A stretch of DNA of 61,680 nucleotides, filler included, from Choristocarpus tenellus KU-1152 (Eukaryota; Protista; Phaeophyceae): assembly GCA_964200185.2 (NCBI GenBank). It is 8 parts of 8 records of this genome, joined end to end, with 100 filler letters (N's around TTAATTAATTAA, not from the genome) between each part and the next. Parts side by side here need not be neighbours in the genome. Positions count along the whole stretch, not along the records: positions 42,288 to 59,000 come from CAXNAD020000786.1; 7 more parts are not named here. One strand, 5' to 3'. The notes under the pieces are model-generated. The model saw only the letters and a program-made list of their open reading frames with translations. It ran no database searches and was not told where the DNA came from. A program made the translations under genes and the position numbers. Below, one piece after another: positions 42,188 to 60,056 of the stretch. How positions within the stretch are numbered: position 1 is the first letter of the stretch; each line of letters starts with the position of its first letter.

Positions 42188-44193
42188 NNNNNNNNNNNNN
42201 NNNNNNNNNNNNNNNNNNNNNNNNNNNNNNNTTAATTAATTAANNNNNNNNNNNNNNNNNNNNNNNNNNNNNNNNNNNNNNNNNNNNGGGGGTGGGTCTC
42301 TCTCCACCTCCCTTCCTGTTGAAGGGGTACTATTTTTGTTGAATTGGAGGCAAATTGTGGAAGAGAACGGATCAGATTCGGCCTTCCACTTTGGTACATA
42401 ACGGGAAAATGGCGTTGAGTGTACTTTCTTTGAGACCTTTGATGCAGACAGATATCAGACATTTCTTTGACTGGTGGGTGTTGTAATTTAAGGCTCTCTG
42501 CATTAATAACATTTCATGGACACAATTTCATACCTTGGTGAATAATGAAGTCATAAACATGAGGCTCACAACTTTTAGAGAAAAACTTTTGAGGTGTTGA
42601 AAGACTTTTATTTTAAATGCAACTTAAAGGCGTGTCAACCCTTAAATGGCATAACTCGCCTTAAAATGGACACTCGCCAATAAGGCAAGTCGTTTTGGGT
42701 TGGGACAGTGTCGCCTTAAAAAGAGTCACTACTACTGGGGTGTAGTTGTGAATCGACGGGTTTCGCTAGAATAAATTTAAGTGACTCGGTTTTTTGTACT
42801 AATTCAAACCAAAGTGACGCGCGTGCCACTTCTTCCGCAAATGGAACTTCGACAGGGTACGCCAGCCATATATAATAATGGTTGGGATTAGGACAAAAAC
42901 ATCCTAAGATGGTGTTCATTCAACCGCTCGATTTGGGATGTCTAATACCTCAAATATAGTTAAGATTGAAAAACTGGCTCAAAATGTGTAACAGTCAAAA
43001 ACTGGGTACCTCTCATTTACTTTGACTTTTAGATACAATAATATCAATAATTTTTTCTCTATGTAGAGAAATATTGGAAAAAGAGCGTTTAATTCATTTA
43101 TAGTTCATTATTACTTACTATTGTACAGTAGTAATACTATAATTTAAAGGACTTCCACAAGGCATCAAAGGCGAATTGAGTGTGGGAGGTGGTGATGAGC
43201 AGAAATAATGCAAATGACCAGACCTCAGTGAGGTCTTGTTGAGAGAAGGATGCCTCGATCCCTTGTCCTTGTTCAACGTGCGATTTGTCCCAGTCACATA
43301 CAGTTACTACTATTAATACGATGTTTGTCCAAAAAATTGGTTTTCCACCCATTTCACACTATGAGTCAGCAAAAAAAGGACTAATTGTGATATCCGCAAT
43401 TGTACAAGGTGCTCTTCTACTTTTCAATCCTTTGGTCAATAGTCCAAATATTCAACTCTTGAGTAACCACTTTACTATATACTGTACATGACGTATTATC
43501 TTAACCATTGAGGAACAAGTATGCTACCCCACCACACCAACAACGCAGCACCTCTCCAACTCTTGTGTCCTTCCCAAGGAGAAAACACTCCTACAAAGTA
43601 TAAACAAAGACCCACTACATGAGCAAAGAGAGGGAACACTATAAAAATCATAGTACCACTACCTTAGCAAAGTAGGAACCCATGGAAGTACACACAAAAG
43701 GGGCAATTCCGATGCAACATTAGCAATGTAGTGCCAGCGAATGGGTACACAGTAAGTATTAGTAGTAATAATGTGCCAATAAACGGATTACTTACTCCAA
43801 AGATACTCTGAACAGGCAGAGCACCAAAGGTCAAGTTCAAGACGTGAGTGTTATACTCAAAGTACTACTAGGAGAGATAAGATTCTCACCAGCAGGGCTG
43901 TTACCTCTTATTTCTCACTCACATAAAAGAACTGTTACAATCACCACCACAAGATGATTTACCGCCCTGCATATAGACTAAAGGACAAACAAATGCCCTT
44001 GCCTGTCTCCAGTCCCCCAGTCACTCGCTATATCTATGCCAAAATTGCACAGCTTTCGAGACCTTGGTCAGGCCAGACTTGTAGGTATACATCAAAGGGC
44101 ATACCATGTACTACTTAGGGTTAGGGTTATACCACATACTACTGTGCTACAAAAAACACAAACCACCCTCAATCCTGCTCTCCTTACTCCCTT

Positions 44194-45201
44194 TTAACCC
44201 TTCCCCCCAGTGGATGCTGCCACAGACTTCTCATACAGCTTCTTCTGCTTGTCCCAGTCCTTACGGAACTTCTTGATGGCACTCTTGCTAAACGCCTTCC
44301 CTTCCTTGTCGTGTGTTGGTACACCATCTATGTCAAACGCAGAGAAGAGGTCGGTCTGACCCGTGAAGAGTTCCTCCGGGGGAGTGTTTTTTCGTGCCTC
44401 CTTCTCTGCTAGCTGACGGGCCTGGTGGAAGGAAAGGGGACCAGGCAGATAGATGATTTATCTTCATGAGCTACGATGACATTGAGGGTACGATTTTCTG
44501 GGAAATAAACTAACTTGGAAGGTGAAGGGGCCGCACGATATATTTGGGAGACCCTTGCTCAAAAATCAGTAGATATAACTCGAGTGTCAGTACCTGTGAT
44601 ATCACCAAAGTCTTGCAACACTGGCTCTATTCAACATGTCCTGTACCAATCGAATATGAAAAATGAGGACTAGAGATAGGAGAAACCACCCTCAACTATG
44701 TAGAACTGGACATGGTTGATGAACACAAAGAAATGGGGGTGAAAACTGCCTAGAACAGACCATGCGATTCCAGTGAGCTATACCTTATCAGCAGGTCAAA
44801 ACTCTCATCCCATCCTCTTCCAAAAGAGGCACAGTTTGTGAGCTGCAACAACAACAAAGACGATCAAATCCCTATACCCCAAACGCTTTTATCCTCAACT
44901 GGGTCTCTCACCACTGGAAGAACTTTCTTTCCTTCAGCTGTTGATGGCATTCTGTCCCTGAATGTTACTTAAATGAATCAACCAATGAATCACAATCACA
45001 CAATGTAATAAAAAAGATAATCCCTCCCACCCTCAAGAACAAACCTACTTGCAGCGAAAGTAAAACATCAGCATACATCGCCCCCCCCCCGTCCCCACAC
45101 ATTTTGTATACCAAAATAAAGCACAACCTGCTGCGGACTGTAACACAGCCCTCTCAACAGGGGTGTGAGTGAGGAACTCTCTATACTTGCCAAACGAAAT
45201 G

Positions 45202-45232
<31 letters not shown>

Positions 45233-48200
45233 GACAGGTATCGTGCTGCTAGTTGTAATTGTCATCAAAATAAAACCGGCCAAGACATCCCAAACGCACA
45301 TATATGAAATGTGAAAATAATCGTTTGTCCATGCCTTTGTGTTTGTGTAGTTCATTCACACGGTATCCTTGCAGTGCACATGGCAACCATCACTGTTTTG
45401 TTTTCTTTTTCAGATGCATTTTTTCAAGAAACTAACCCTAACCCTAGGTTGTGTATGAAAAATATCCCTAACCACCCAAGGAAACATTCTAAAAGATGGG
45501 TAGCAGGAGAGTGTGCGCTGGGGAACCACCACCTGAATTCACCACTGTTCACTTTTTTCACATGCATTTTCAAAACCCCTAACCCTAACCTGTGTGTGAA
45601 AAAGATCCCTAAGCTTGATTCGAAAAGCTAAAAAATATGACAGTGGAGGTTCCCCAACACACAGGTATTCTCCTGTCCACTTCAACCTTCAAGAATGCCA
45701 CTCAAATTGCATTCCTAGAAATCCGTAAGTAATCAACCCAAGAAGCTAAGCACATGCACACAATGGATGACATGACTGGCAGTCATTTACAATCCATACT
45801 TGCAGCACCTGTACCATACCATACCATACAAAACTGTGCAATGCCCTTCATTATTGAACAAACAAGACCATGACTACCTGCTTCTATCAATTCGGTGAAT
45901 CAAGTATCAAATATTACATTCTTGTGAGGGTGTCCAATATAAGTACATTCAAATTTGGAAGGAAGGCTTCCACACTCTCAAGAGTGGTTGCTCTGGAGAC
46001 TTGAAAGGCTTTGCTTTGACTAAAAGTAATACTCTTTGAATCCTATTGGCTAGAAGGGGAACAGACATTTGCAAGAGCTATAGTAAAATGATTTCGCTTA
46101 TCAACCATTTCAAAAAAGAGATAATAAGGTGACTCAGATATTGACCCACTGAAAAAGAACTTGTTGCCCTGCTGCCAATGACAAACCCAGCAATGAAAAG
46201 TCTCACACAACCACACTCATACCACTTCACCTAAAGAGTGTAGCAATGACGCTCTTACAACAGAAGGGACAGTTTTTGACCCACTATTGACCAGGGATGT
46301 AGTGGAGATACTGAGGAGCTCAGTAAAAAACCCACAAAGCTTTCAGGTGTCTTACACAATATTCGGTCAAACCACCAACAAACGACTTGTCTTGAGTTTA
46401 GCAAACCCCTGAAAGGTTAGGTATTTCCACTATATTCTTGATCTTAGGTATTGAATCTCTTGTTTGTGTGAATATCTATCCATGCCACATACCTAGAAAA
46501 CGAAGAAAACCTCAACCCTAACCCTAACCCATACTGAAGACAAGCACACACACTCTGCATGCTTCCTACCCCTCAAAGTGACACGCACTTCTTGTACCTA
46601 TCTCTTTCCAATCGTAGACGAGGTTTTGAGATGAATGCGTCCCATCACATCAACACTAGAGTTCCTGCCACAGACATGCCAACCCTTGCCCTTAGTCCAC
46701 CAAACATACTTCATACTTGGAGCTTTACCATTTCATTCCTCAAACCCATCGCACCTGCTCCTCCTTGCGACTTTTACCCGGAGCGGCAGTCCCCTTTCCC
46801 ACCGCCTCCCTGAGAGTGATTGTCCGATTAATCACCAACCTGTCACCACTAGTGTCTGGGTCCACCACAAAGAACCCAATCCGCTCCATCTGTCAGGTCA
46901 ACCGTCGACCGTCAACCATCACATGTCACACAACCACAAGGCACATAAAACACAAGTCAACTAAGGACAGAACAGAAAAGGAATATGATCTCCTAGTTGC
47001 ATCAATAGCAAGATTAGGATTGAAATTATTAACTCAACACACACTTGAGAATTAGCCCCCAAAGTGACAGTGAGATGCCCCACATAGATCAACTTCCAGG
47101 AGTACATGGGTAACGGCGTCCAACGCCTACACCTTACTTAACTCCCTCCCACTCCCCAACACAAGGATTTATCTTTGACGTAACCCCATTCTTCAAAAAT
47201 CTTCTACTCAGTTGTTGGTCTCCTGGTAGCAATACGCATTCTGACCAAAACTTAGGTTACAAATATATTGTATCTAGTGCTGACTGTATGGATTGATTCA
47301 ATACATAACCCTCCGTAGGAGAGTAGGTGGGCAGTATTGTGTTGTCTCTGGTTGCAACTGGTCATATCTAGTCCATAACCCTGCACAACATAATCAAGAG
47401 TCCTTTGGATTTGCAGTACTATATTGTACCATGTATCTTCAACAAACATAAAATACACTTCTTCCTTAGCTACTTTTGAGTGAAACTATCCTAGGTGGGC
47501 GTCAGTCTTTTCACTTGAGTTTCAAGGTCATCAAATTCTTCACTACATGCACCATGTCCTTGAAGGGGTGTTACTGTAGAAGAAGGGCTTACTTAGCTGG
47601 GGATGTATTGTAAATTAAGAGCAATCTACACGTTGCTCAAAATGTGCTACACCCTTAAAAATAATCCACACACCTCTCTTCAGTGTTATCCATCCTTAGT
47701 GCATCACCTGAGGGTACAAAAAGTACTAATAATTTTATTGTGTATTGAGCTGCCTGACACTTTGCACTTGTTGTACCAAGGAGTACGTACTAAGGAAATC
47801 CTTCAACAATTGAAATGACATGTAAGCCAAGCAGATTGAACTCAAGCACAAATCGTGTTGGAAACTAGGAGAGACACTGACACTGCATTGTGTTGTTTAC
47901 TTCTCAAGCAAAGTTGAATGCCTTGAATCAATCCTACACCGTGCACACACTGACCCCCCCAAAAAAGACCAGCTCTGTCATCAACAGAATTGATCACAGA
48001 CCCTTGGGGGGAAAATCCCAATCTCCCAGATCTCTTGTGGGTAGGAAGGCACACAAATTGGAAGGTTTTCTGCCAACAAACCTGTACACATTATATTCCT
48101 CACACAGAACAAATTTTCAACCCTTACTTGGTCATCTCAGATACAGGCAATCCCCACAGATGCTGCTGAACATTAAGATGGTAGAAGTCTCTTCTGTATG

Positions 48201-51200
48201 GTGCAATGCAGCTCAACTGCTCAGAGAATCAAGGACTTTTGTAACACATGTGTATCAGTGTTTCTAGTAACCCTAACCCTAACCCTAACCCTCTATTCCC
48301 ATGTCCTCGCCATTACTACCATTACTCCTGCCATCACCCCCCCCAAATACACTGAAACCATATATGTACGAGTTTTCGGCCTGCCCTGTCTTGAACTCCC
48401 TCTTACTGCCCACGACCTGGTCTGGGTCAACCTTGCCTTGCCTCAAAGGCCCCTCTCCCAGCTCTATCAAATATTGGATAAAATATGCCTCTATGTATAT
48501 CTATCTATATCCGCAACCCAATTAAGCTCAACAAACCCAGCATAATTTCCAGCACAAGATATTACTTTGGAGGTACTACTAGGTACTCCTAAGCACTACG
48601 CAGATCCTTGTGCTGCACAACCCAAGTTAATCAAAAGTATTGAAATACATTACAAGTGATTCTAAACACCATTCTTTTTTTAGTCAAAATATTAAAAGCG
48701 TAGACATCATTGAGAGCAAATCACACTACTTTGATTCCACAACAAACGTAAATAATGAAAAACAAGGTAAAATGAAAATTCTTGGTGCAGCTTCCAAAAA
48801 AAAATGAAAATGGTAAAACAACTGGGTTAAAAATCCTAACATTTTCAGCCCGAACAAGCCTCTTTCATAATGACACTCTCCCTCACCCTAAACAAAACAG
48901 GTCTGAGATCAGAATCACCGATGATATTTCAATGGCCACACCACAAAGGGTGAAGTAGCAGCAATCATCCAACCACTGCACAACAAACACAGTGGCAAAT
49001 TTTGCATCCTGTGGCCATTCAGTCCCATGACCACAAGATGGGTCACAAATACACTACTACTTACCTGGAAGCATGTGCCAGCAGGGGCTCCTCCAGGCCG
49101 TGCGATGAGGGAAGGGTCCAAGAGGGCACCCTCGACAACGACTTCTGAATCCTTTGTGAGCTGCCAGGAATGGTCATGTTAAAGCGGGGACGTGGGCCTT
49201 TTAAGGCAGAAGCAGTCAAATAAGTACTGTCTAAGTAGAAGAGGGGGGTCTAATATGTGTACCCTCCTAAAACGGATAATCACTCAAGGCAACATAATAA
49301 AGCAACAGAGGAATAATGTGATAATTCATACAACAGTGCACTAGGGAGAAACTCTGACACAAGACAGGAGGGAGGAGAGGCAGAGCAAAAGGCAGTAGGA
49401 TCACCACATCCAACACACAACAACAAAGTGAAGCACTGATGGGGGAATGCAAATAGTTGAACAAAACTTGGTACATCTAGTAGTTAATGGAGTAGTACAT
49501 TGTGTAGTGTAGTGTAGTGTAGTGACTTTGACCATGGGATGGGGCCAGGTAGAGTTGAGGTGCTGGTTTCTACTTTCAGATCAAAGCAATCCAGTGACCA
49601 TATGATGTAACCTCAGTTGACCACTAACAGTTTTGACCTTGCAAGAAAAACTGACAAGCTTATTTTATCTACTGATTATAGGGGGGGGAAAGTCTATAGA
49701 GCTGCTTCCTATGTAATGTGGGTGAGAATGACTTTCCATACTTCAATAGGCCCGGTCAAAAGCACTTACAGTCAAGAACCATGTCCTCGCTTGGGTTTTC
49801 AAAGGGGGCAGTGAAGTTTGGGGGTTCTTCATCATCAAAGGCCTTGGCATGGAAGAGAGCGAAGTTGCCTCTCAATGCAAATGAACTCAACCCTTACATT
49901 TTTTTCTTAATACAGCTATCTTGGCTTGTCAGTCACATATACCCTCTTTTGTCTCCTGATCAACTCCACCACATTCAAAAGGATTTCCAATGAATGACAG
50001 ATCTTCCGTCAAATCTCACCTCACAGTGCAAGAAATGTCTATTTAGTACAAAGTGACATCAGTAGGGAGATTTTTTTTTCAACTTGTGTACTGAAGTAGT
50101 AGATCTGAGTGCTCTTTGGCAAAAACACCCAAGAATTATCATTGCACTCAATCAAATCAAACCACGGCACTAGCGAGAAATGCAATCAAGTACATCAAAA
50201 ACTTCAATTCAAATCAAACACTGAAGATCGTTCTGTCAACTGCATCGCACCAAACCACACACCTCTGTTCATTTTCAGTTCAGAGAGTTCTTGGGGGCAG
50301 GCTACAAATGTCCAAGATAGTATCCGATTTTGAAAGAAAAAAATTGGGGGGAGGCCTTTACAAAAACCCACCAGAAGGTCACCACAATATGTCAGCAAAA
50401 TCCAAGTTGAGTTGATCTACCTATTCTATGCCTCCCACTACAACGCTACAAGAAATGCCTTCCCAATGCAGCATTTTTTCTGCCTTACAAATCTTTGAAA
50501 CTAATGCTGAACAGAATAAGCACAACATCACATACAAGCCAATATTTTCAGGTTACAGCAATGTATGCATACAGGCCAGACGAACGCTGCTGGCTTGATA
50601 CAGGATTTCAACGATAATTCCAATAGTAGTGATGAATGTTAGGGTTAGGGTTAGGGTTAGTGATGAATGTTAGTGATGTGAAGCTATCGTATTTACATTT
50701 GCACATCTGCATCTTCTCCAACTAATTTTCTGAGAAATTACAGCACAAACAAGAGCAACCAATCAAACAACTGCAACACAAACACCATAAACACAACACT
50801 CATCTATTAGAACTCTACAAGATCACACTCATTCAACACATCACTGCTCCTCCTCACCTGCTCCTCCCACCGGTCGTCAGGAGAGTCCACAGCAAAAAGA
50901 TGATCATACAACCGCACCTCCGCCACAACACATCCCTCCCCAGGAACCCAGGAGATATTACCCTTGGGTCGTTTCACCACACCTTCCCCCTCCCCTCCCC
51001 CTTCCTTCCCGTCGCTGCCTCCTGGTAAGACACCCAAGGTAGTAACAGAGCAACGAAGCTCCTGAATTGTCCCATCCTTAGCCTCTACCACTTCATCACA
51101 CTTCATGGCCATGCTGCAGTGCTTAAGTCCAACCGACTGTAGGTAGGTGCCACAACACAGTTAACAATTGGTGCTAGGGTTAGGGTTAGGGACGCATGCT

Positions 51201-54200
51201 CGTGGAAACAAAAACTGACAGAATTGAAACATGTAGGTTTTCCTGCACATTGAAAGTACTAAGCTTATGCTGAAAATAACAAAATTAAACAACAGATTCA
51301 AGATGTATGTTTATAGCCCCATGTGCATTATCAAGTTCTGGCTTCAGTACTCCTAGCAAGCAGTATGGAAAACCAAAGGAAATAAAAAAAAAAATGCAAT
51401 CAGGACATGCACACTCATCAAGGGGCAGGGGAGGGCAGATGACCACCTTTGTGTTCAAAGTAATTATCATTAATACCAATCAAACAACCACAGGAAACTC
51501 CTCAACCCACCTACTTACCCCACAAAAAACTCATCACCCCTCTAACTGACCACTCTACAGCAGGAAAGTCCAACACAATAAAGTCCAAAAGATTAATAAG
51601 GTTCAAAGTTTATCCGGACCCCTCAACCATATTTAGTCCCCCCTCCCCTTTTGTCAACACCTATACAACGTAACACCCTCCTTCACCGAGTTTTCTCATC
51701 CCTAGAGCAAAGGCTTCCAGCCCAGCTTACCTTTCCTGGAGCTAGCCCATAGTAATCTGGTGCATCCTCTCGCCTGAAGTCAGAGCTGTCGACGTACAGT
51801 ACCTTTGTGAGGGTTAGTTTGTGAGAGCCCTTCTCTGGAGCAAATGGGATATCTGGTACCTTCATATGCATCCACACCACCATGCCACATGCACGTCCAC
51901 CAGGGGAGATGACCAAGCGGGGAAAAGTAAAGTAAAGTAAAGTAAAAAACATACCAAGAAGTTAAACACCAGACAAAAAAAAACAATCTGAATCAACATG
52001 TATGAAAAGGATTCCTCATCAACAGATTAAAATACAATATACATACATATATTTATATATATATATTCCTATTTGAGCTTAACACCGTCAAAAGAAAAGA
52101 ATGAAAACCAAAACCAGTAGATCAGTAAGGTCAACAAAAAATATCCAACCAAGGAAACAACAAAGAGGTACTACAGTAGCTAAACAAAATCACTCATGGT
52201 GATTGATGGTATTTGGAGCATACCTTCCATCACACATAATCCATGATACCATGATACCATTCTCACAAAATCCAACCATTAACCAACCAATAAGATACCA
52301 ATACAGGAAAGAAAGTCCAGGAGATAGTCAGCACCTTGCCCCAAAAAGGGTTAAAGTTGTTTTCTGTAAGGGGCGGGCAAATCACATTGTACCATACCTC
52401 TAGTTCTCTCTCCGCCTCCAAGTTGGTAAGTGTGACCTTAATGGGGTACAGAACACCCATCACTCTTGGTGCAATGTCATTGAGGATGGTTCTGACCCAA
52501 TACTCAAGTTTCTCCACCTCGATGACATTCTCATTCCTAACAAACAAGCAATTCCCAAAAGCTGTGTTAAGAATGGTATTAGTATTAGTATTAGTATTAG
52601 TTAAGAATGTTGATGGTATTAGTATCTAGTATCTCCAAATGGTTAAAGTGTCTTTATCACAAAAGTGTAAGTGTGAATCAAGGATTGCAAGAGTAAAACA
52701 GCATTGCTTATTGACAACCTGCCTCAAGCATTGTTGTGTTACAATACAATATCTATGTTTATGAGTAAACTACTAAGGAAGATCTAAAGTTGGTGGGTAG
52801 CAATCACACAATCACACCATGAGACAAGAGACAAGAGAGCAAAACTGTAGGATGTTGAGACAATGGACCATTGATGTATATAGAGAACAGTACAGTACAA
52901 GTGCTTATCGGTACTTCCCAAAGATTGTAGTACAAAGATTGCTGAGGGGAGTTCTTTCAGTGTCGGCGGTTGTCACAAAAAAATTTAATTAACAACCTTT
53001 TATTGTGCTATACCTCACAACTACTACAAGATATCGAGCAGCACACTAGTACTAAAGGTGCTCTTCTACGTTACTCACTGCTTTGAACATACACAAACCA
53101 CAGTAGATCCCAGTCTCTTTGCTTAATTTAATCATTTTTCTAAATCTAGCATTCCACCTCGCAGGTTATATCGACAAAGGTTATATCAACAAATATAATA
53201 TCAACAAAGGTTATATCAACAAATATAATATCAACAAAGGTTATATCAACAAAGGTTATATCAACAAATATTATATCAACAAAGGTTATATCAACAAAGG
53301 TTATATCAACAAATATTATATCAACAAAGGTTGTATCAACAAATATTATATCAACAAATATTACCTCAAAACCAACCCGACCATAGTAAAGTGTATTCAC
53401 TTTTGCCCTTGATCACATCCTTTATTCTCAAACGGATTTTTTCTTACAATAACCGGAAGAGTTCTAAGTCTGCCCCTCCCAATAACCCTCCCCCCCCATC
53501 AAAGAAATGTAAAGATGTGACTTCTTTTTCTAACTAACATCGTCCTGCCTATGGATACATAAGATGTAGTTCCCTTCAGCTTGTAGAGGGAACTCCCTAC
53601 CGCTTGAGGTTTACTTGAGGGGGTGGGGTTTGGTTTTATTGGAAGGGGCAGACTTAGAACCTCAACCCTAACCCAAATCCTGACTTAGGAGAGGGTTTAG
53701 GTCTAAGGCATCAAGGGACAAGGGCTAGGTGACAGGCACAGGGGCAGAGTTTACAGGTCAATCAGCGTACACATACTGTACTATATATAGTATACCATTT
53801 CAAGGTGTTTTTGTAGGGTTAGGGTTATGATAACCAAGACACGTTGATATTAGAGAAGGGTTAGGGTAAAAGGTGTGTACAGCATAACCTTATTTGAAAA
53901 ATCACGTAGTGCTAGACTAGATAAAAACATAGATTTTCAATGGAGAAAAAGAAGAGTTCCTGATTGATAATTCTTATTTCTGATGAAAATAAATACAATA
54001 CCTGTACAAAACACAAGCATCTAAAAAAAAATCATATTCCTCCCAAAAAACTGTTCACTTCATCAAGAGACTCGTCCCAGTAGAACGGTCACCATCACGA
54101 ATGCAAACCAGTATCAATCATGGACAACAAGTTATATCCGTATACCACACCACTCGACAAGGATCACTCCAACAAAGTCCTCATAAAAATGCATTCCAAT

Positions 54201-57200
54201 ACAACAAGTACTTCAACATCAATTAGAAATACTTCCAACAGTATCCATTCCAAATACTTCAACAATATCCAATCCAATACAATACAAAGAGCAAGTAACA
54301 AGAAGTCAAGATTTCAAATACTTCTAACCCTAACCCTAAGTTGTGTCATGTGCTAACTGACCTTGTAACCCCAATGTCAGCACAAAAGGCGTTGATTACC
54401 TCAGGTGTATAGCCCCTCCTCCTGAATCCCTTGATGGTGGGCATGCGGGGGTCGTCCCAACCATGTACCAGACCCCCCTTAATTAGCTTCAGCAACTTGC
54501 GTTTGGATAGAACCTTTCAACAACAACAACAACAATCAACAACAAACAAACAGCAAGAGGATCACTCAAAGAGACACCTCTTGTGATCAACAAGAAATAT
54601 AAAAGGAAACAGCACCCAAGAAGATAAAAAAGGGTTATTAACCCTAACCCTAAGGCATGCAACAGCCCAGACTAAGTTGAACCATTACAACTAAATATTA
54701 TACTCAGCAGGAGAAATAGCGTATGTATTCGATTATTGACGTAATAGAGTTGGAAAGGTTAGCATTAAAAGAAAATATTCAAAAATGGTGTTTTGGGTCA
54801 GTGCCATGGCTGAGATCATCTCACCTAAAGTCCAATAAAAAAAATTATCAAAAAAAAATCTATTTGTAGGAAATGAACTACTACCGAAAATATATTTTAA
54901 AAAAAACATCGTAACAATTCTTCTTTTTATTATTATTTTATTCAACAAATCACTAACTAGGATCGCACTCAACATATTTTCCACACTCTTTCCAGTAGCA
55001 AGTACCAAAAACATCCAAAATCAACTGTAAGTGCTTCAGCATATAAACAAGACATCCCCCTCCCCCTCCCCCTCCCCCCCCCCTCTTGTTTATTTTGTTC
55101 TTCACCGTGCGAGTGATATTGAGTCGTGCAAACTCGTAAACCTTGGGTCTGTATATTTCCAACGCCTCAAGGAGCCAATAGTATGACTCTCTCCTAGTCT
55201 CAAACTCCAAAGTACAGATGGAATAATCAATGTCTTCCAAGCTGAACATAGATAAAGAGTACAAGTTCACAGTTGACAGGGGAGGGGGAGGGGAATCAGG
55301 ATCTCCACCATTTAATTAACAGCAAATTCTACAGAATGTACTTGGAAGTGATGGGAAGGGACTCATTTTCCTAGGATAAGGATGTCTCAATACAGAACAC
55401 TACATTAGACAATACATTGCATCACAAGGGATGCACAGAATGAGATGCTGGGCAGATACCAAAACTTTCATGGTTCGGAACATGATAGACTTTACCTCTT
55501 CAGGGTGTAGAGGGATCATGCTTTTGGTTCACACTTGGTTCTATAAACTCTCAACAAGCACACAAATGCATGACAACAAAAAAATTCATCACTCAAAAAA
55601 CCTCAACTATTCAAAATTTTAAATATCGTACACCAAAAAAAAGGGTGGATCACCAAGATGTAAAAAAATTGTACAATGGTTCCATCTCAACTTTGGACAG
55701 CCCCACTCTAACCAATAATATCAAAATAAGAACAACCACAACAACCACTAGCTGGAAGACAAAATGTATGTATGTATGTATGTATGTATGTATGTATGTA
55801 GCAATGAAAGAACTCTTGTTAGAAAAAAATTGTTTCTGAAGGGATCATAGACCAGGTAATGATGAACAGGTAAGTATCTTTTTTATCTGTCAGTATCAGG
55901 TACCAAATATCAGATACCAAGTCTAAAGTAGAAAAAAAACTAAGAAACAAGAACAAAAAACCGTTAACATATTCTTAACACCATGACTGTTACAATTTAT
56001 TAAATTGCGTCAAATGAGATGTTAACATATACAAAAGCTACTGCTCTCTCCTTGTCCTACTGATCAAAAATACACCACCAATGATAATGTCCTTACATTA
56101 AATAAACAGAAATAATACCAACTAGTCAAGGTATATATCTCCAGCAGGAAAGACTCAAACTCAAGTAACTATTAATATACTCATGTATCCATTTGAGGGT
56201 GGGGAAGTTAACTAAGGCTTCGGGTTTCAATCCTTACATTTTTCTATGTACATCACATTTGAAGGGTCATTTTTTTGTAAACACAAGTCACCAACCCTAA
56301 CCCTAACCCTAAACCTAGCTACTTAAGTCACACCTGTCCACGAGGCAGTGAGTGAAATCATAAGTGGGGTATATGCACCACTTGTTTCCAACGTGAGGGT
56401 GTGCAATGTACCTAATCCGATACGCCACCTACCAGAACACACAACACACAACACAAAACAACAAAGGAGGGGGAGAGATAGAGCAGTGGTGCATTGGCCT
56501 AAGAGAAACAAAAATATAGCAAGGAGGAGACAGATCAAGGAGGAAACAGATCAAGGGGGAGAGAGCTCAAGGGGGAAGCAGGTCAAGGGAAAGACAGTTC
56601 AAGGGAAAGACAATTCAAGGGGTCTGTTTTTCTTTGCTGTAAAGAGGTAAAAGCCTCAGAACCTTGCGACCCAATGACTCTCTTGCATAAACTTGGTAGG
56701 TTTGTCACCCCAAAAACTACTAGACCTTCACAGCCCTATCAATTTTCACATTGAGGCTATATAGATGGACACGCTGCCAAACATAGAGGTCTAGAATCAC
56801 ACATGACCCATCATACATCAACCCAAAGTACAAACAAAACAAAAATATGATATACACAGCCCTAACCCTAACCACCCCCAAAATGTACACCAACATCAAA
56901 TCTACATCCGTCCCACCTCTTGTCGAAACCCCCAAAAACCCTGACCTTCCCACATCTCATCTATCACGTCGCCTTCAAGATATCCAAGAAATATTATCCA
57001 TGCTACAATAGCAGAGCTGTATTCACAAAGGTGTAAGAGACATGATACTACATTTATACATAGTATTAATATGAAAAAATACATTTTCTTTCTTGCATCT
57101 ATGATGGCAGTTACAGAACTCGAAATAATGCAAAGGGAACTATGGAGCTCAAATATCCAGGTCACCCTAACCCTAACTAATAGCATACAACCAAAGAAGC

Positions 57201-58643
57201 ACGTGTATTAACCAAAGAGTGTGTATATTAAACTTTATTTCTTCAAAACAAACTACACATATGGAGTGTCTGGAAAGAGTTACTTCTGCTGACAGGTGCA
57301 ACTACACACTATATATCCTCCCACACTTCATACACATGTTTCGCCCATGGTTGAACGACAAACTGAATCCCCAACACACTACCACCAAAATTCAACATGC
57401 AGCAATGCAGCAGATACACCACACATGACTGTCAGCATACCCTACATCAGCCTGACAGATAACAATATCTGGGCATGTTGCATGCCTATCATCTTTCATC
57501 TTCGCCAGATACTTTCATAGTTCACAGTAAAGGTGGGTAGAGTTTTATCAGTAATAACAGTAACAGTACCAGTTAACAGTATCCATGTACCTGATCCCAC
57601 ATGTTGGGGTTGGGTGAGGTCATATCCATCTTGAGCCTTAGGGTGCACTGATTCTCCTCCATCTTGCCTACCCGCATGTCTTCAAACAAAGCCAGACTTT
57701 CCTAGCCCGTTGGGGGTGAGAGTACAACAAAGTACATACAAAGTATATTCAAAGTACGTTTAAAGTATATACTAAGTACATTTAAAGTACATTCAAAGTA
57801 TATTCAAAGTACAACGAAATACATACCAAGTATATTCAAAGTACATTTAAAGTATAAGCAAAGTACATACAAAGTATATACAAAGTAGATTCAAAGTACA
57901 TACAAAGTACATTCAGAGTACATACAAAGTACATACAAAGTACATACAAAGTACAACAAAGTATATTCAAAATATATACAAAGTACATACAATGAAAAAA
58001 CAAAACACAAATCCAAGTCAAACCAGAGGAATGGCATTGAAGGGTTAGGGAGTCTCAGGGTTCAGAGTGAGGCCTATCATAGGGGATTGTAACAATAACG
58101 GTAGGGTTAGCGATGTGGATGAAACTGTGCAGATCAACAACACCATGCTGAAGAAGGCTCTTGGTATGTCATTAATCTGTCCCTTAACGCAGTAAGTCGT
58201 AACAATGTACATATACAGTTTACATGCACTTGTAACATCAGGTGTACAGAACAGATGTGGATGCTATGCTATATTGCGGAATATAGTACGTAGGCCAATA
58301 CACTAGATGATATGTTGGAGATTACTACCTGCTGGATGACTAAGAAGGTAGAGTAGCCCACCATGTGAAGAACAGATCACTATCTCATCTGGTGTTGGAT
58401 GAGTAACACACATAATGCTTGGTACAAATGAGAGGAACTGACACTATCCTTTTGACCTACAACCATTAGAACAACTAACCCTAACCCTGAATGAATACGA
58501 CATCTGTGCACCTCAACAGGCCTATCCCTCCAGGGACTGCAAGGATCTCCATCTGCATTGGGATCCATCATCTTGGCCCTGGCCACGTCTCTGCATCGAG
58601 AGATATCGTCCTTGCTCTGATGACACACATACGCCTTCCCGCT
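44194..58643 (-). CDS. QARS: Glutaminyl-tRNA synthetase, 3' part. Exons 58512-58643, 57591-57701, 56334-56428, 55106-55241, 54362-54513, 52398-52536, 51731-51859, 50858-51136, 49065-49160, 46755-46889, 44194-44421
   Basis: [132 protein letters not shown]. All 11 exons are phase-compatible; TAA at 44194-44196. Confidence 0.96.
53165..53362. repeat. 15-bp minisatellite ([GGT/TAT/TATA-variant]TATATCAACAAA), about 13 copies, in a QARS intron
   Basis: Read directly. Confidence 0.9.
53459..53663. mobile_element. MITE with about 25-bp TIR (GTTCTAAGTCTGCCCCTYCCAATAA)
   Basis: 53461-53485 is the near-perfect inverted complement of 53636-53660. Confidence 0.65.
57720..57991. repeat. 11-bp degenerate minisatellite (AAAGTACATAC) beside the acceptor at 57702
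   Basis: Read directly; more than 20 imperfect copies. Confidence 0.9.
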
Positions 58644-59100
58644 CTGTTTCGACAAAAAAAATGTAAGACGTAAGAAATTACAGATTGCACCATGAAACCA
58701 TTTATGCATTCAAAAAGAGGTTGTGCTTGGTACACATGCTCCTTGCCACCAACACCCTGCAGATCATGATAAAGAGGACCTGTAAACAGGGGAGGGAGGG
58801 GGGAGAGGGGCACGAGCGATCTGTGTCCAAGATTTCCTTTATACAGAGTAACGTATAATGTGCTCTTAGTGCTATTCCAAGTGCCATTGAACATCATACC
58901 TGTCAACCCCTCCCCCGCCCACACCGAAACCTCATGGAAAATCTCCCCCCTCCCCCCCCCCCATCAATTAAACCTTACTAAAGTCTAGGCCCTTCCATCC
59001 NNNNNNNNNNNNNNNNNNNNNNNNNNNNNNNNNNNNNNNNNNNNTTAATTAATTAANNNNNNNNNNNNNNNNNNNNNNNNNNNNNNNNNNNNNNNNNNNN

Positions 59101-60056
59101 CTAGGCTTGACATTGCAAATGCAGTTCGTGAAGTTGCCAAGTACAGTAGCAATCCCAAAGTCACTCATTGGCGTGCAGTGAAATGTATTTTAGCATATTT
59201 GAATACGTGTCCCAGTGTTGGATTGAGGTTTGGTGGTTTTGGTACTGAGTGTGAGTTGAGTGCATATGCTGATGCTAGTTATGCTGGAGACTGGAATGAT
59301 CGTAGGTCAGTGACTGGAGGAGCAATTATGTTTGCAGGAGGAGCAATATCTTGGATGTCAAAAGTGCAAAGAGTTGTAGCTCTGTCTTCCACAGAGAGTG
59401 AATACATAGCACTTAGTAGTGTGGCACAAGAAATACTTTTCTTGAGGAGTGTTTTTGAGTTTATTCAGCCACAGTTTCCTAGGCGTTGCATTGATTTGTT
59501 TGAGGATAATGATGGTGCATGTAAACTAGTACGAAATGCCACAAACTCTACTAGAACAAAGCACATAGATGTCCGACATCATTTTTTAAGGGATTTGTCT
59601 AGAAAAGGAGAGATTCGTGTTGTTTTTGTTGGTACTGCAAACCAGAGAGCAGATGTCTTGACCAAGAATTTGCCAGTTCGAGTTTTTAGACAACGTGTGA
59701 AGTTTTTGATGAACATGTGACACAACTTTTGTTTTTGATTTGATTTGATTTTTTTTTTAATGATTGTTTGAGAGATAATACTTGTTTTCAGCAAGGGGAG
59801 GATGTCGAATAACCTAGTGTTATCCTTACGTTGTTTGTGCTGACACAAGTACACCACATAGGTTATACGTACGTTTATATTTGGTTAGGTATGATACAGA
59901 GTACGTACGTATAAAAAATATAATAAGTCAACATTAATCCACACATCAGTGATGATGGATGGTTGACAGGCAATTAATAATTCAATGTGTGCTTTACCAT
60001 GTAATTCAACAGCTAGCTTCCGGCGACGAGCCTCATGTGCGCCAAGCTTCTCGACA
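59101..60056 (+). mobile_element. Ty1/Copia LTR retrotransposon 3' end (RT end/RNase H, PPT 59793-59802, 3' LTR 59803-60056)
   Basis: Copia pol motifs, the purine tract AAGGGGAGGA, and an LTR bounded by TGTCGA...TCGACA. Confidence 0.9.
59103..59720 (+). CDS. Copia Pol C-terminus (reverse transcriptase end plus RNase H), 5' truncated by gap
   Basis: RLDIANAVREVA..HWRAVKCILAYL, AYADASYAGD..DRRSVTG, VALSSTESEYIA, FEDN, RTKHIDVRHHFLR, QRADVLTK. Confidence 0.93.
   Translation, partial: RLDIANAVREVAKYSSNPKVTHWRAVKCILAYLNTCPSVGLRFGGFGTECELSAYADASYAGDWNDRRSVTGGAIMFAGGAISWMSKVQRVVALSSTESEYIALSSVAQEILFLRSVFEFIQPQFPRRCIDLFEDNDGACKLVRNATNSTRTKHIDVRHHFLRDLSRKGEIRVVFVGTANQRADVLTKNLPVRVFRQRVKFLMNM

What the first reader, a model, noticed from the sequence alone, without database searches (positions are those of the whole stretch)
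44194..44421. GlnRS carries a C-terminal module resembling the eukaryotic CysRS extension
Seen: after the normal GlnRS end (INRTITLRE) the ORF continues via GKSRKEEQ into a separate phase-0 terminal exon: [64 protein letters not shown]. Known: PPxEMF...YSxFDExGLPTHDxEGKELSK..KKLxK..Q.KL is the C-terminal appended domain of cytosolic eukaryotic cysteinyl-tRNA synthetase, whereas typical eukaryotic GlnRS has its appended domain at the N-terminus. Inference: exon shuffling of a basic, probably tRNA-binding module between synthetases, possibly shared across stramenopiles.
Basis: partly seen in the sequence, partly recalled or inferred. Interest (0 to 1): 0.7.

Follow-up and report, generated by a model that had tools for sequence, protein, structure and literature searches.

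The report
Synthetase tail shared between GlnRS, CysRS
This brown-algal glutamine tRNA-charging enzyme ends in a spliced-on 65-residue domain that is also the tail of eukaryotic cysteine tRNA-charging enzymes, and the domain likely helps grip tRNA in place of the usual N-terminal arm that its relatives lack.

Summary
Confirmed. The exon at 44421-44194 (minus strand) is real and is spliced to GlnRS: contigs of run X2 join 46755 to 44421 across a GT-AG intron. It is homologous to the last ~65 residues of eukaryotic cytosolic CysRS (48-53% identity to two named CysRSs; closest predicted structures are CysRS tails). It is not peculiar to this alga. 109 of the 120 closest GlnRSs carry it, including oomycete, diatom and xanthophyte proteins. 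None of those has the Yqey-like N-terminal domain, while the 3 that have that domain (including the stramenopile Cantina) lack the tail. Added here: the same tail, with the same SRK.EQ linker, also sits on a second GlnRS whose core groups with bacterial enzymes (diplonemids plus unnamed records). The two cores do not form one clade (AU p 0.0004), so the tail likely moved between cores. Shuffling of this exon is not supported: the conserved linker lies on the previous exon and the intron position varies. Likely function is a cis-acting tRNA-binding appendage (inferred, untested). The scan reported the same layout earlier in Albugo. I found no paper describing it in 10 searches.

The parts
44194..44421 (-). 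Terminal coding exon of cytosolic GlnRS (75 aa + stop), carrying the CysRS-type tail domain
   Evidence: spliced joint
44308..44346 (-). Predicted beta-hairpin (exon residues 26-38) with the D..G.PT motif; G33 and P35 invariant in 69 aligned sequences
44209..44286 (-). Predicted long basic helix (exon residues 46-71) that begins with an xSKxxLKKxxK-like motif; 9 K/R against 3 D/E in 22 residues
44422..46754 (-). Last intron, 2333 nt, GT-AG, phase 0
46755..46889 (-). Penultimate exon: end of the anticodon-binding barrel, a flexible linker and the conserved SRK.EQ start of the appended unit
49065..58645 (-). Nine upstream exons of the GlnRS core (approx. 58645-58511, 57700-57589, 56426-56334, 55241-55104, 54511-54361, 52535-52395, 51856-51731, 51136-50858, 49160-49065); further 5' exons lie off the contig
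   Evidence: Pfam hits
43800..44193 (-). 3' untranslated region, at least this far: one high-depth X2 contig covers it together with the terminal exon
   Evidence: table 8, record 9

Best explanation
The exon encodes the spliced C-terminal domain of a cytosolic GlnRS, homologous to the end of the eukaryotic CysRS extension, and it likely works as a tethered, sequence-non-specific tRNA-binding arm that would replace the Yqey-like N-terminal domain missing from these enzymes. Shown: splicing, homology to CysRS tails, conservation across ochrophytes and oomycetes, and no sampled protein with both the tail and the N-terminal domain. Predicted: a small helix-hairpin-helix domain on a disordered 12-residue linker, ending in a lysine-rich helix. 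Inferred: the helix contacts the tRNA backbone in cis and lowers Km for tRNA-Gln. Also inferred: the tail was fused to a GlnRS once, probably from CysRS, and later passed with its linker between two different GlnRS cores by gene recombination or core replacement, not by shuffling of this exon.
For: Splicing. Homology: of 72 longer hits scanned (of 150 listed), 27 carry GlnRS/GluRS-family Pfam domains, 14 CysRS domains, 6 other and 25 none. Named CysRS hosts are Hymenolepis, Macrostomum and Paratrimastix. The top three structure matches are CysRS clusters or CysRS-fragment clusters, TM 0.90-0.84. Distribution: tail in 109 of 120. In the 84 tail-bearers with a HIGH match it lies at residue 25-138, leaving no room for the 210-259 aa N-terminal domain (size from PMC3333875). 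PF04558 occurs only in P0061, P0075 and P0081, which lack the tail. Fold: mean pLDDT 78; homologue P0005: linker 568-579 below 50, tail blocks 85-96. Precedents: xSKxxLKKxx helices bind tRNA (PMC13219428); the Deinococcus C-terminal Yqey enhances affinity in cis (PMC1865053 abstract); the Plasmodium QRS K-rich tail binds tRNA non-specifically (PMC9136112). Origin: linker motif in 20 of 24 and 15 of 15 GlnRS tails against 4 of 39 CysRS tails; cores not one clade.
Against: No binding or kinetic data exist for this domain on GlnRS. The exon as a whole is only mildly basic (16 K/R against 12 D/E). The strict SKxxLKKxxK pattern is met in 18 of 24 stramenopile-type, 4 of 15 second-group and 13 of 39 CysRS tails, so it is not the best-conserved part; the hairpin motif is (24/24, 15/15, 36/39). 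The human CysRS extension is reported to sharpen anticodon discrimination rather than add general affinity (as cited in PMC3333875). Mutual exclusion with the N-terminal domain rests on only 3 carriers of that domain, and the ranking favours tail-bearers. The tail tree is unresolved, so the donor is not shown; the window's own tail scores equally on GlnRS and CysRS profiles (93.6 against 93.0 bits).
Confidence: 0.65

Rival explanations
1. The tail would act as in human CysRS, as a kinetic quality-control element that tightens anticodon discrimination (tRNA-Gln against tRNA-Glu) rather than as a general affinity booster.
For: This is the only function reported for the homologous CysRS extension (passage in PMC3333875). 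The tail follows the anticodon-binding barrel directly.
Against: Only the last ~65 of the 178 residues of UNE-C2 (571-748 per PMC7254149) are shared, judged from CysRS homologues. Reuse on a different fold and tRNA suits a non-specific role, and the linker is predicted disordered.
Confidence: 0.17
2. The tail would be a protein-interaction or localisation module (multisynthetase complex, elongation factor, ribosome, nuclear import) common to both enzymes.
For: The best-conserved residues are the structural hairpin and aromatic positions, not the lysines. Tandem or stand-alone copies occur in proteins without synthetase domains (P0126, P0245, P0213).
Against: No partner is indicated by any search. 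The terminal helix resembles a documented tRNA-binding motif.
Confidence: 0.12
3. Origin rival: the tail was ancestral on GlnRS (or passed from GlnRS to CysRS) and was lost repeatedly in bacteria and in lineages that kept the N-terminal domain, so no transfer between cores is needed.
For: The two tail-bearing groups lie on both sides of the GluRS root and share the linker. One clade of GlnRS tails is not rejected (p 0.70). Change counts cannot tell gain from loss.
Against: It needs several losses. No sampled protein has both domains (0 of 3 carriers), and none of the bacterial-length GlnRSs has the tail (101 of 109 GlnRS-motif rows lack it). The tail is on CysRS in animals, fungi and a metamonad but patchy on GlnRS.
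Confidence: 0.2
4. Origin rival: this exon itself was shuffled from a CysRS gene into the last intron of GlnRS.
For: The intron is phase 0 and lies near the domain start; five other records break at the same place (P0002, P0003, P0123-P0125).
Against: The conserved linker lies upstream of the intron. Other GlnRS records break about 8 codons later and CysRS-like records 4 codons later (breaks inferred from read-through gene calls, not from DNA). The gene has at least 10 introns, so one near any domain edge is expected.
Confidence: 0.07
5. Artefact: the exon belongs to a separate CysRS fragment and was joined to GlnRS by gene prediction.
For: The assembly is fragmented, and one chimeric synthetase transcript was met among the hits (P0149).
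Against: The joint is seen in run X2. The same fusion is present in 109 of 120 homologues, including transcriptome-derived ones.
Confidence: 0.01

Closest known systems
C-terminal extension of eukaryotic cytosolic CysRS (UNE-C2 of human CARS1, residues 571-748; PMC7254149)
   Same: Last ~65 residues homologous: 48-53% identity to two named CysRSs, same predicted fold, same C-terminal position on a class I synthetase.
   Different: Host is GlnRS. The upstream part of the extension and its long E/K/A helix are replaced by a short linker with SRK.EQ. Reviews treat such domains as tied to one synthetase family (PMC3333875 introduction).
Eukaryotic GlnRS with the Yqey/GatB-like N-terminal domain (PF04558/PF04557; yeast Gln4)
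   Same: Same catalytic and anticodon core; the stramenopile tail-bearing core groups with N-terminal-domain carriers. Probably the same role as a tRNA affinity helper.
   Different: Domain absent in all 109 tail-bearers; the appended domain is unrelated and at the other end.
Deinococcus radiodurans GlnRS with a C-terminal Yqey domain (PMC1865053)
   Same: A C-terminal appended domain on GlnRS that enhances tRNA affinity in cis.
   Different: 215-residue Yqey paralogue; no similarity to this tail was found (profile against PDB sequences).
Plasmodium/Toxoplasma GlnRS K-rich C-terminal extension (PMC9136112)
   Same: Same position; shown to add non-specific tRNA binding.
   Different: By eye from the supplement alignment, the Plasmodium tail is a plain charged helix of about 45 residues with no P-x-x-F or D..G.PT hairpin motif; Toxoplasma's tail was not seen.
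xSKxxLKKxx helix of class IIb synthetase N-terminal extensions (AspRS, LysRS, AsnRS)
   Same: The terminal helix fits the motif; weak Pfam AsnRS_N hit on it (E 0.32, below cut-off).
   Different: Only the helix is alike; it may be convergent.

Membership tests
Glutaminyl-tRNA synthetase | Class Ib catalytic domain plus two anticodon-binding barrels (PF00749, PF03950, PF20974) | tested here: met
   P0001 precomputed domains; exon hits; homologue model matches GlnRS structures first
Glutaminyl-tRNA synthetase | Groups with GlnRS, not GluRS, in a core tree | tested here: met
Glutaminyl-tRNA synthetase | HIGH motif in this gene | tested here: inconclusive
   The 5' exons are off the contig; 84 of 109 tail-bearing homologues show the motif
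Glutaminyl-tRNA synthetase | Charges tRNA-Gln with glutamine | not testable with these tools
   needs an assay
Canonical eukaryotic GlnRS architecture | Yqey-like N-terminal domain (PF04558) | tested here: not met
   Tested on homologues only: absent in 109 of 109 tail-bearers; this gene's own N-terminus is missing from the window
Eukaryotic CysRS C-terminal extension (UNE-C2) | Sequence homology to the terminal domain | tested here: met
   human CARS1 itself was not compared
Eukaryotic CysRS C-terminal extension (UNE-C2) | Same predicted fold | tested here: met
   TM 0.90, 0.84, 0.84 between predicted models over 74-75 residues; no solved structure matched
Eukaryotic CysRS C-terminal extension (UNE-C2) | Full-length extension attached to a CysRS core | tested here: not met
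   Only the terminal part is shared and the host is GlnRS
Eukaryotic CysRS C-terminal extension (UNE-C2) | Modulates anticodon discrimination | not testable with these tools
   needs kinetics
xSKxxLKKxxK tRNA-binding helix | Motif on a predicted helix | tested here: met
   Helix 46-71; relaxed pattern in 18 of 24 stramenopile-type tails
Shuffled exon module | Intron at the conserved unit's boundary, shared by donor and recipient | tested here: not met
   Linker upstream of the intron; breaks at 14, 10 and 6 codons before P-x-x-F (inferred from protein records)

The most novel reading that the evidence does not exclude
A domain regarded as specific to CysRS is a mobile tRNA-binding cassette. 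It displaced the ancestral N-terminal domain of GlnRS within stramenopiles, and it then passed, linker included, onto a separate bacterial-type GlnRS used by diplonemids and other marine protists. This gives a third solution, beside the N-terminal and C-terminal Yqey domains, for how GlnRS holds its tRNA.
Probability: 0.45. Interest if true: 0.65.

Novelty: new variant of a known kind. Interest (0 to 1): 0.5.

Why it matters
Appended domains of synthetases are often catalogued as unique to one enzyme, and the CysRS tail has no Pfam model in the copy searched and no solved structure. Finding it on two unrelated GlnRS cores gives natural swap experiments for what the domain does, which bears on the human CARS1 extension. 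It also explains how stramenopile GlnRS may cope without the N-terminal domain, and it marks a lineage-level difference from animal, fungal and green-algal GlnRS. It is a domain rearrangement of a known sort, not a new mechanism.

Tried and rejected
No whole genome is held for this window. The run search listed no holder on record as RNA; this is no evidence either way. Pfam gives the exon only a sub-threshold AsnRS_N hit. PDB sequence searches with the exon and with a 69-sequence profile found nothing significant. Fold searches found no clear match (Foldseek 0 at E<=0.001; VIA best Z 4.3); this does not show the fold is new. The atlas feature search gave only scores under 0.8 and did not name the unnamed second-group protein P0284. 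P0149 first looked like a GluRS with the tail; it is a chimeric transcript, with its first 338 aa equal to GluRS P0275 and its last 365 aa to GlnRS P0274, so 'tail on GluRS' was rejected. Separate catalytic and anticodon-domain trees showed no breakpoint inside the core. The tail tree (78 rows, 56 columns) is unresolved. The start of model P0001 upstream of 58645 is intron read-through: a loose contig end there continues into unseen sequence. The sequence look-up in earlier findings was blank. Ten paper searches gave no description of this fusion; subscription journals are largely not covered.

Full report
Observation. The minus strand at 44421-44197 encodes the quoted peptide plus ten more residues, preceded by a pyrimidine tract and AG and followed by TAA. 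The previous exon, 46889-46755, ends at a GT donor in phase 0. The window is a chain of contigs joined by N spacers; the gene lies on the contig 42288-59000 and its 5' end is cut off. A database protein identical to the predicted product exists (P0001, 565 aa, labelled Choristocarpus tenellus by its source) and maps to 11 exons.

Splicing. Of three runs laid, X2 has a contig that skips 44420 to 46754 with GT-AG ends at depth 476, while intron contigs have depth about 50; X1 and X3 show no such joint. X2 alone was laid on the rest of the gene and joins 9 further GT-AG introns. Its library type is not on record, so I call it spliced sequence, not a recorded RNA library. A loose end at 58645 runs into sequence absent from the contig, so the gene continues upstream and the first residues of P0001 are intron read-through.

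Homology to CysRS. A search of the exon against 1.84 billion representatives gave 503 hits, 150 listed. I scanned the 72 longer ones with Pfam: 27 carry GlnRS/GluRS-family domains, 14 CysRS domains, 6 other families and 25 none. A motif rule on all 150 gave 41 GlnRS, 39 CysRS, 67 unassigned and 3 without the domain. Named CysRS hosts are Hymenolepis, Macrostomum and Paratrimastix. Pairwise identities are 27/51 and 32/67. In the atlas, the nearest predicted structures are cytoplasmic CysRS clusters or fragments from nematodes, ascomycetes and chordates (TM 0.90, 0.84, 0.84), then an oomycete-rich GlnRS cluster (0.80). Human CARS1 was not compared directly; the link to UNE-C2 (residues 571-748, PMC7254149, passages read) rests on those chordate clusters.

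Structure. The model of the exon shows a helix, a short helix, a beta-hairpin at 26-38 and a long helix at 46-71 (mean pLDDT 78). In a full-length homologue (P0005, unnamed) the tail is confident and hangs on a linker predicted to be disordered (568-579). G33 and P35 are invariant in 69 sequences. The last helix holds 9 K/R against 3 D/E, but the whole exon is only mildly basic, 16 against 12. No solved structure matched by sequence or fold.

Distribution. Among the 120 best homologues of P0001 (of 8000 scored; ranking favours tail-bearers), 109 carry the tail, P0001 included. Named ones include Pylaiella, Tribonema, Vaucheria, Chrysoparadoxa, a pelagophyte, Fistulifera, Nitzschia, Triparma, Pythium, Aphanomyces, Saprolegnia and Albugo. 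Of the 11 without, 8 end early at partial models or apparent intron read-through, and 3 are complete and carry the Yqey-like N-terminal domain: Cantina marsupialis, Sanguina and an unnamed record. None of the 109 has that domain; in the 84 with a HIGH match it lies at residue 25-138. Loss of the N-terminal domain is known for trypanosomatids and some fungi (PMC3333875, first part and passages read; PMC8319005, passages), but neither paper's passages mention stramenopiles or a replacing tail.

A second host core. Two hits were diplonemid proteins. A search with one listed 120 proteins: by motif 109 GlnRS and 11 GluRS; the tail is in 8 GlnRS and in the query itself, which proved a GluRS/GlnRS chimeric transcript. 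The tail-bearers are Rhynchopus, Diplonema and Flectonema proteins, one from a genome contig of 182 kb, plus unnamed records. One unnamed member is closer to Pseudomonas, Toxoplasma and E. coli GlnRS (653, 636, 615 bits) than to yeast or human (444, 431); an alveolate source is my guess, untested. Core trees put this group with bacterial GlnRS and the stramenopile group with the N-terminal-domain carriers: FastTree on 57 rows, IQ-TREE on 40 of them (17 dropped for run time) and a mixture model on 30. One clade of tail-bearing cores is rejected (p 0.0004 for the core; 0.0002 for the anticodon domain). The group was defined by the tail, but I had seen the FastTree first. Yet the tails look like one lineage: the SRK.EQ-type linker is in 20 of 24 and 15 of 15 GlnRS tails against 4 of 39 CysRS tails; mean identity between the two GlnRS groups is 55.5%, against 49-50% to CysRS (6 of the 15 are fragments assigned by eye). 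One clade of GlnRS tails is not rejected (p 0.70), but the tail tree is unresolved and the window's own tail scores alike on GlnRS and CysRS profiles. Direction and donor are therefore not shown.

Exon shuffling. The linker and the start of the first helix lie on the penultimate exon. Read-through gene calls imply intron breaks 14 codons before the conserved P-x-x-F here and in five other records, 6 codons in other GlnRS records and 10 in CysRS-like records. With at least 10 introns in the gene, one near the domain edge is unremarkable.

Mechanism. The most likely role is a cis-acting tRNA-binding arm (inferred). It rests on the basic helix, which resembles the xSKxxLKKxx motif (PMC13219428, passages), on the apparent exchange for the N-terminal domain, which serves tRNA binding in yeast, and on two precedents for C-terminal helpers on GlnRS: Deinococcus Yqey (PMC1865053, abstract) and the Plasmodium K-rich tail (PMC9136112, passages and first part of one supplement; PMC10813123, passages and a supplement search; PMC9878616, passages). 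The Plasmodium tail lacks the hairpin motifs by eye, so it is an analogue. Against this reading: the hairpin is better conserved than the lysine motif, and the human CysRS extension is reported to tune anticodon discrimination (cited in PMC3333875; original paper not read).

Novelty. Ten searches and passages of PMC11580382, PMC4494062 and PMC6723311 gave no account of this fusion; AARS Online's table of domains shared between families, as far as shown, does not list it. Subscription papers and unread supplements may hold one. The scan itself noted the same layout in Albugo (e1-7182352), looked up after my own analysis. Verdict: a real, lineage-wide domain rearrangement, a new variant of a known kind, interest 0.5.

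Noticed in passing
window 17981-59100: The window is a chain of contigs joined by 44 N + 12 bases + 44 N spacers (7 such joins), so genes across spacers are not neighbours.
   Followed up: yes
window, 23 places, e.g. 44118, 46519, 48268-48291, 50642: Short interstitial telomere-type TTAGGG doublets are scattered through introns on both strands: 23 exact 12-mers against 0.01 expected.
   Followed up: partly
window 58646-58709: The start of the NCBI model P0001 is likely intron read-through; spliced contigs leave the contig at 58645.
   Followed up: yes
window 59103-59720 (+): An open frame at the start of the next contig looks like the RNase H end of a Ty1/copia retrotransposon (recalled resemblance; no Pfam hit).
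   Followed up: partly
proteins P0126, P0245, P0213: Tandem copies of the tail domain (2-4) occur in proteins with no synthetase domain, one beside F5/8, fn3 and CH domains.
   Followed up: no
protein P0149: A database entry is a GluRS/GlnRS chimeric transcript, joined in the conserved region of the catalytic domain.
   Followed up: yes
proteins P0281, P0282, P0285, P0286, P0288: GluRS-motif proteins close to diplonemid GluRS carry a C-terminal PF01588 tRNA-binding (EMAPII-like) domain.
   Followed up: no
proteins P0274, P0211, P0276, P0278-P0280: Diplonemid GlnRSs have a short N-terminal piece with a weak Arc1p_N-like hit (E 0.0016 in P0274), possibly a GST-like remnant.
   Followed up: partly
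proteins P0046, P0101: Two unnamed GlnRSs carry a further domain of about 200 residues after the tail, with no Pfam match in P0046.
   Followed up: no
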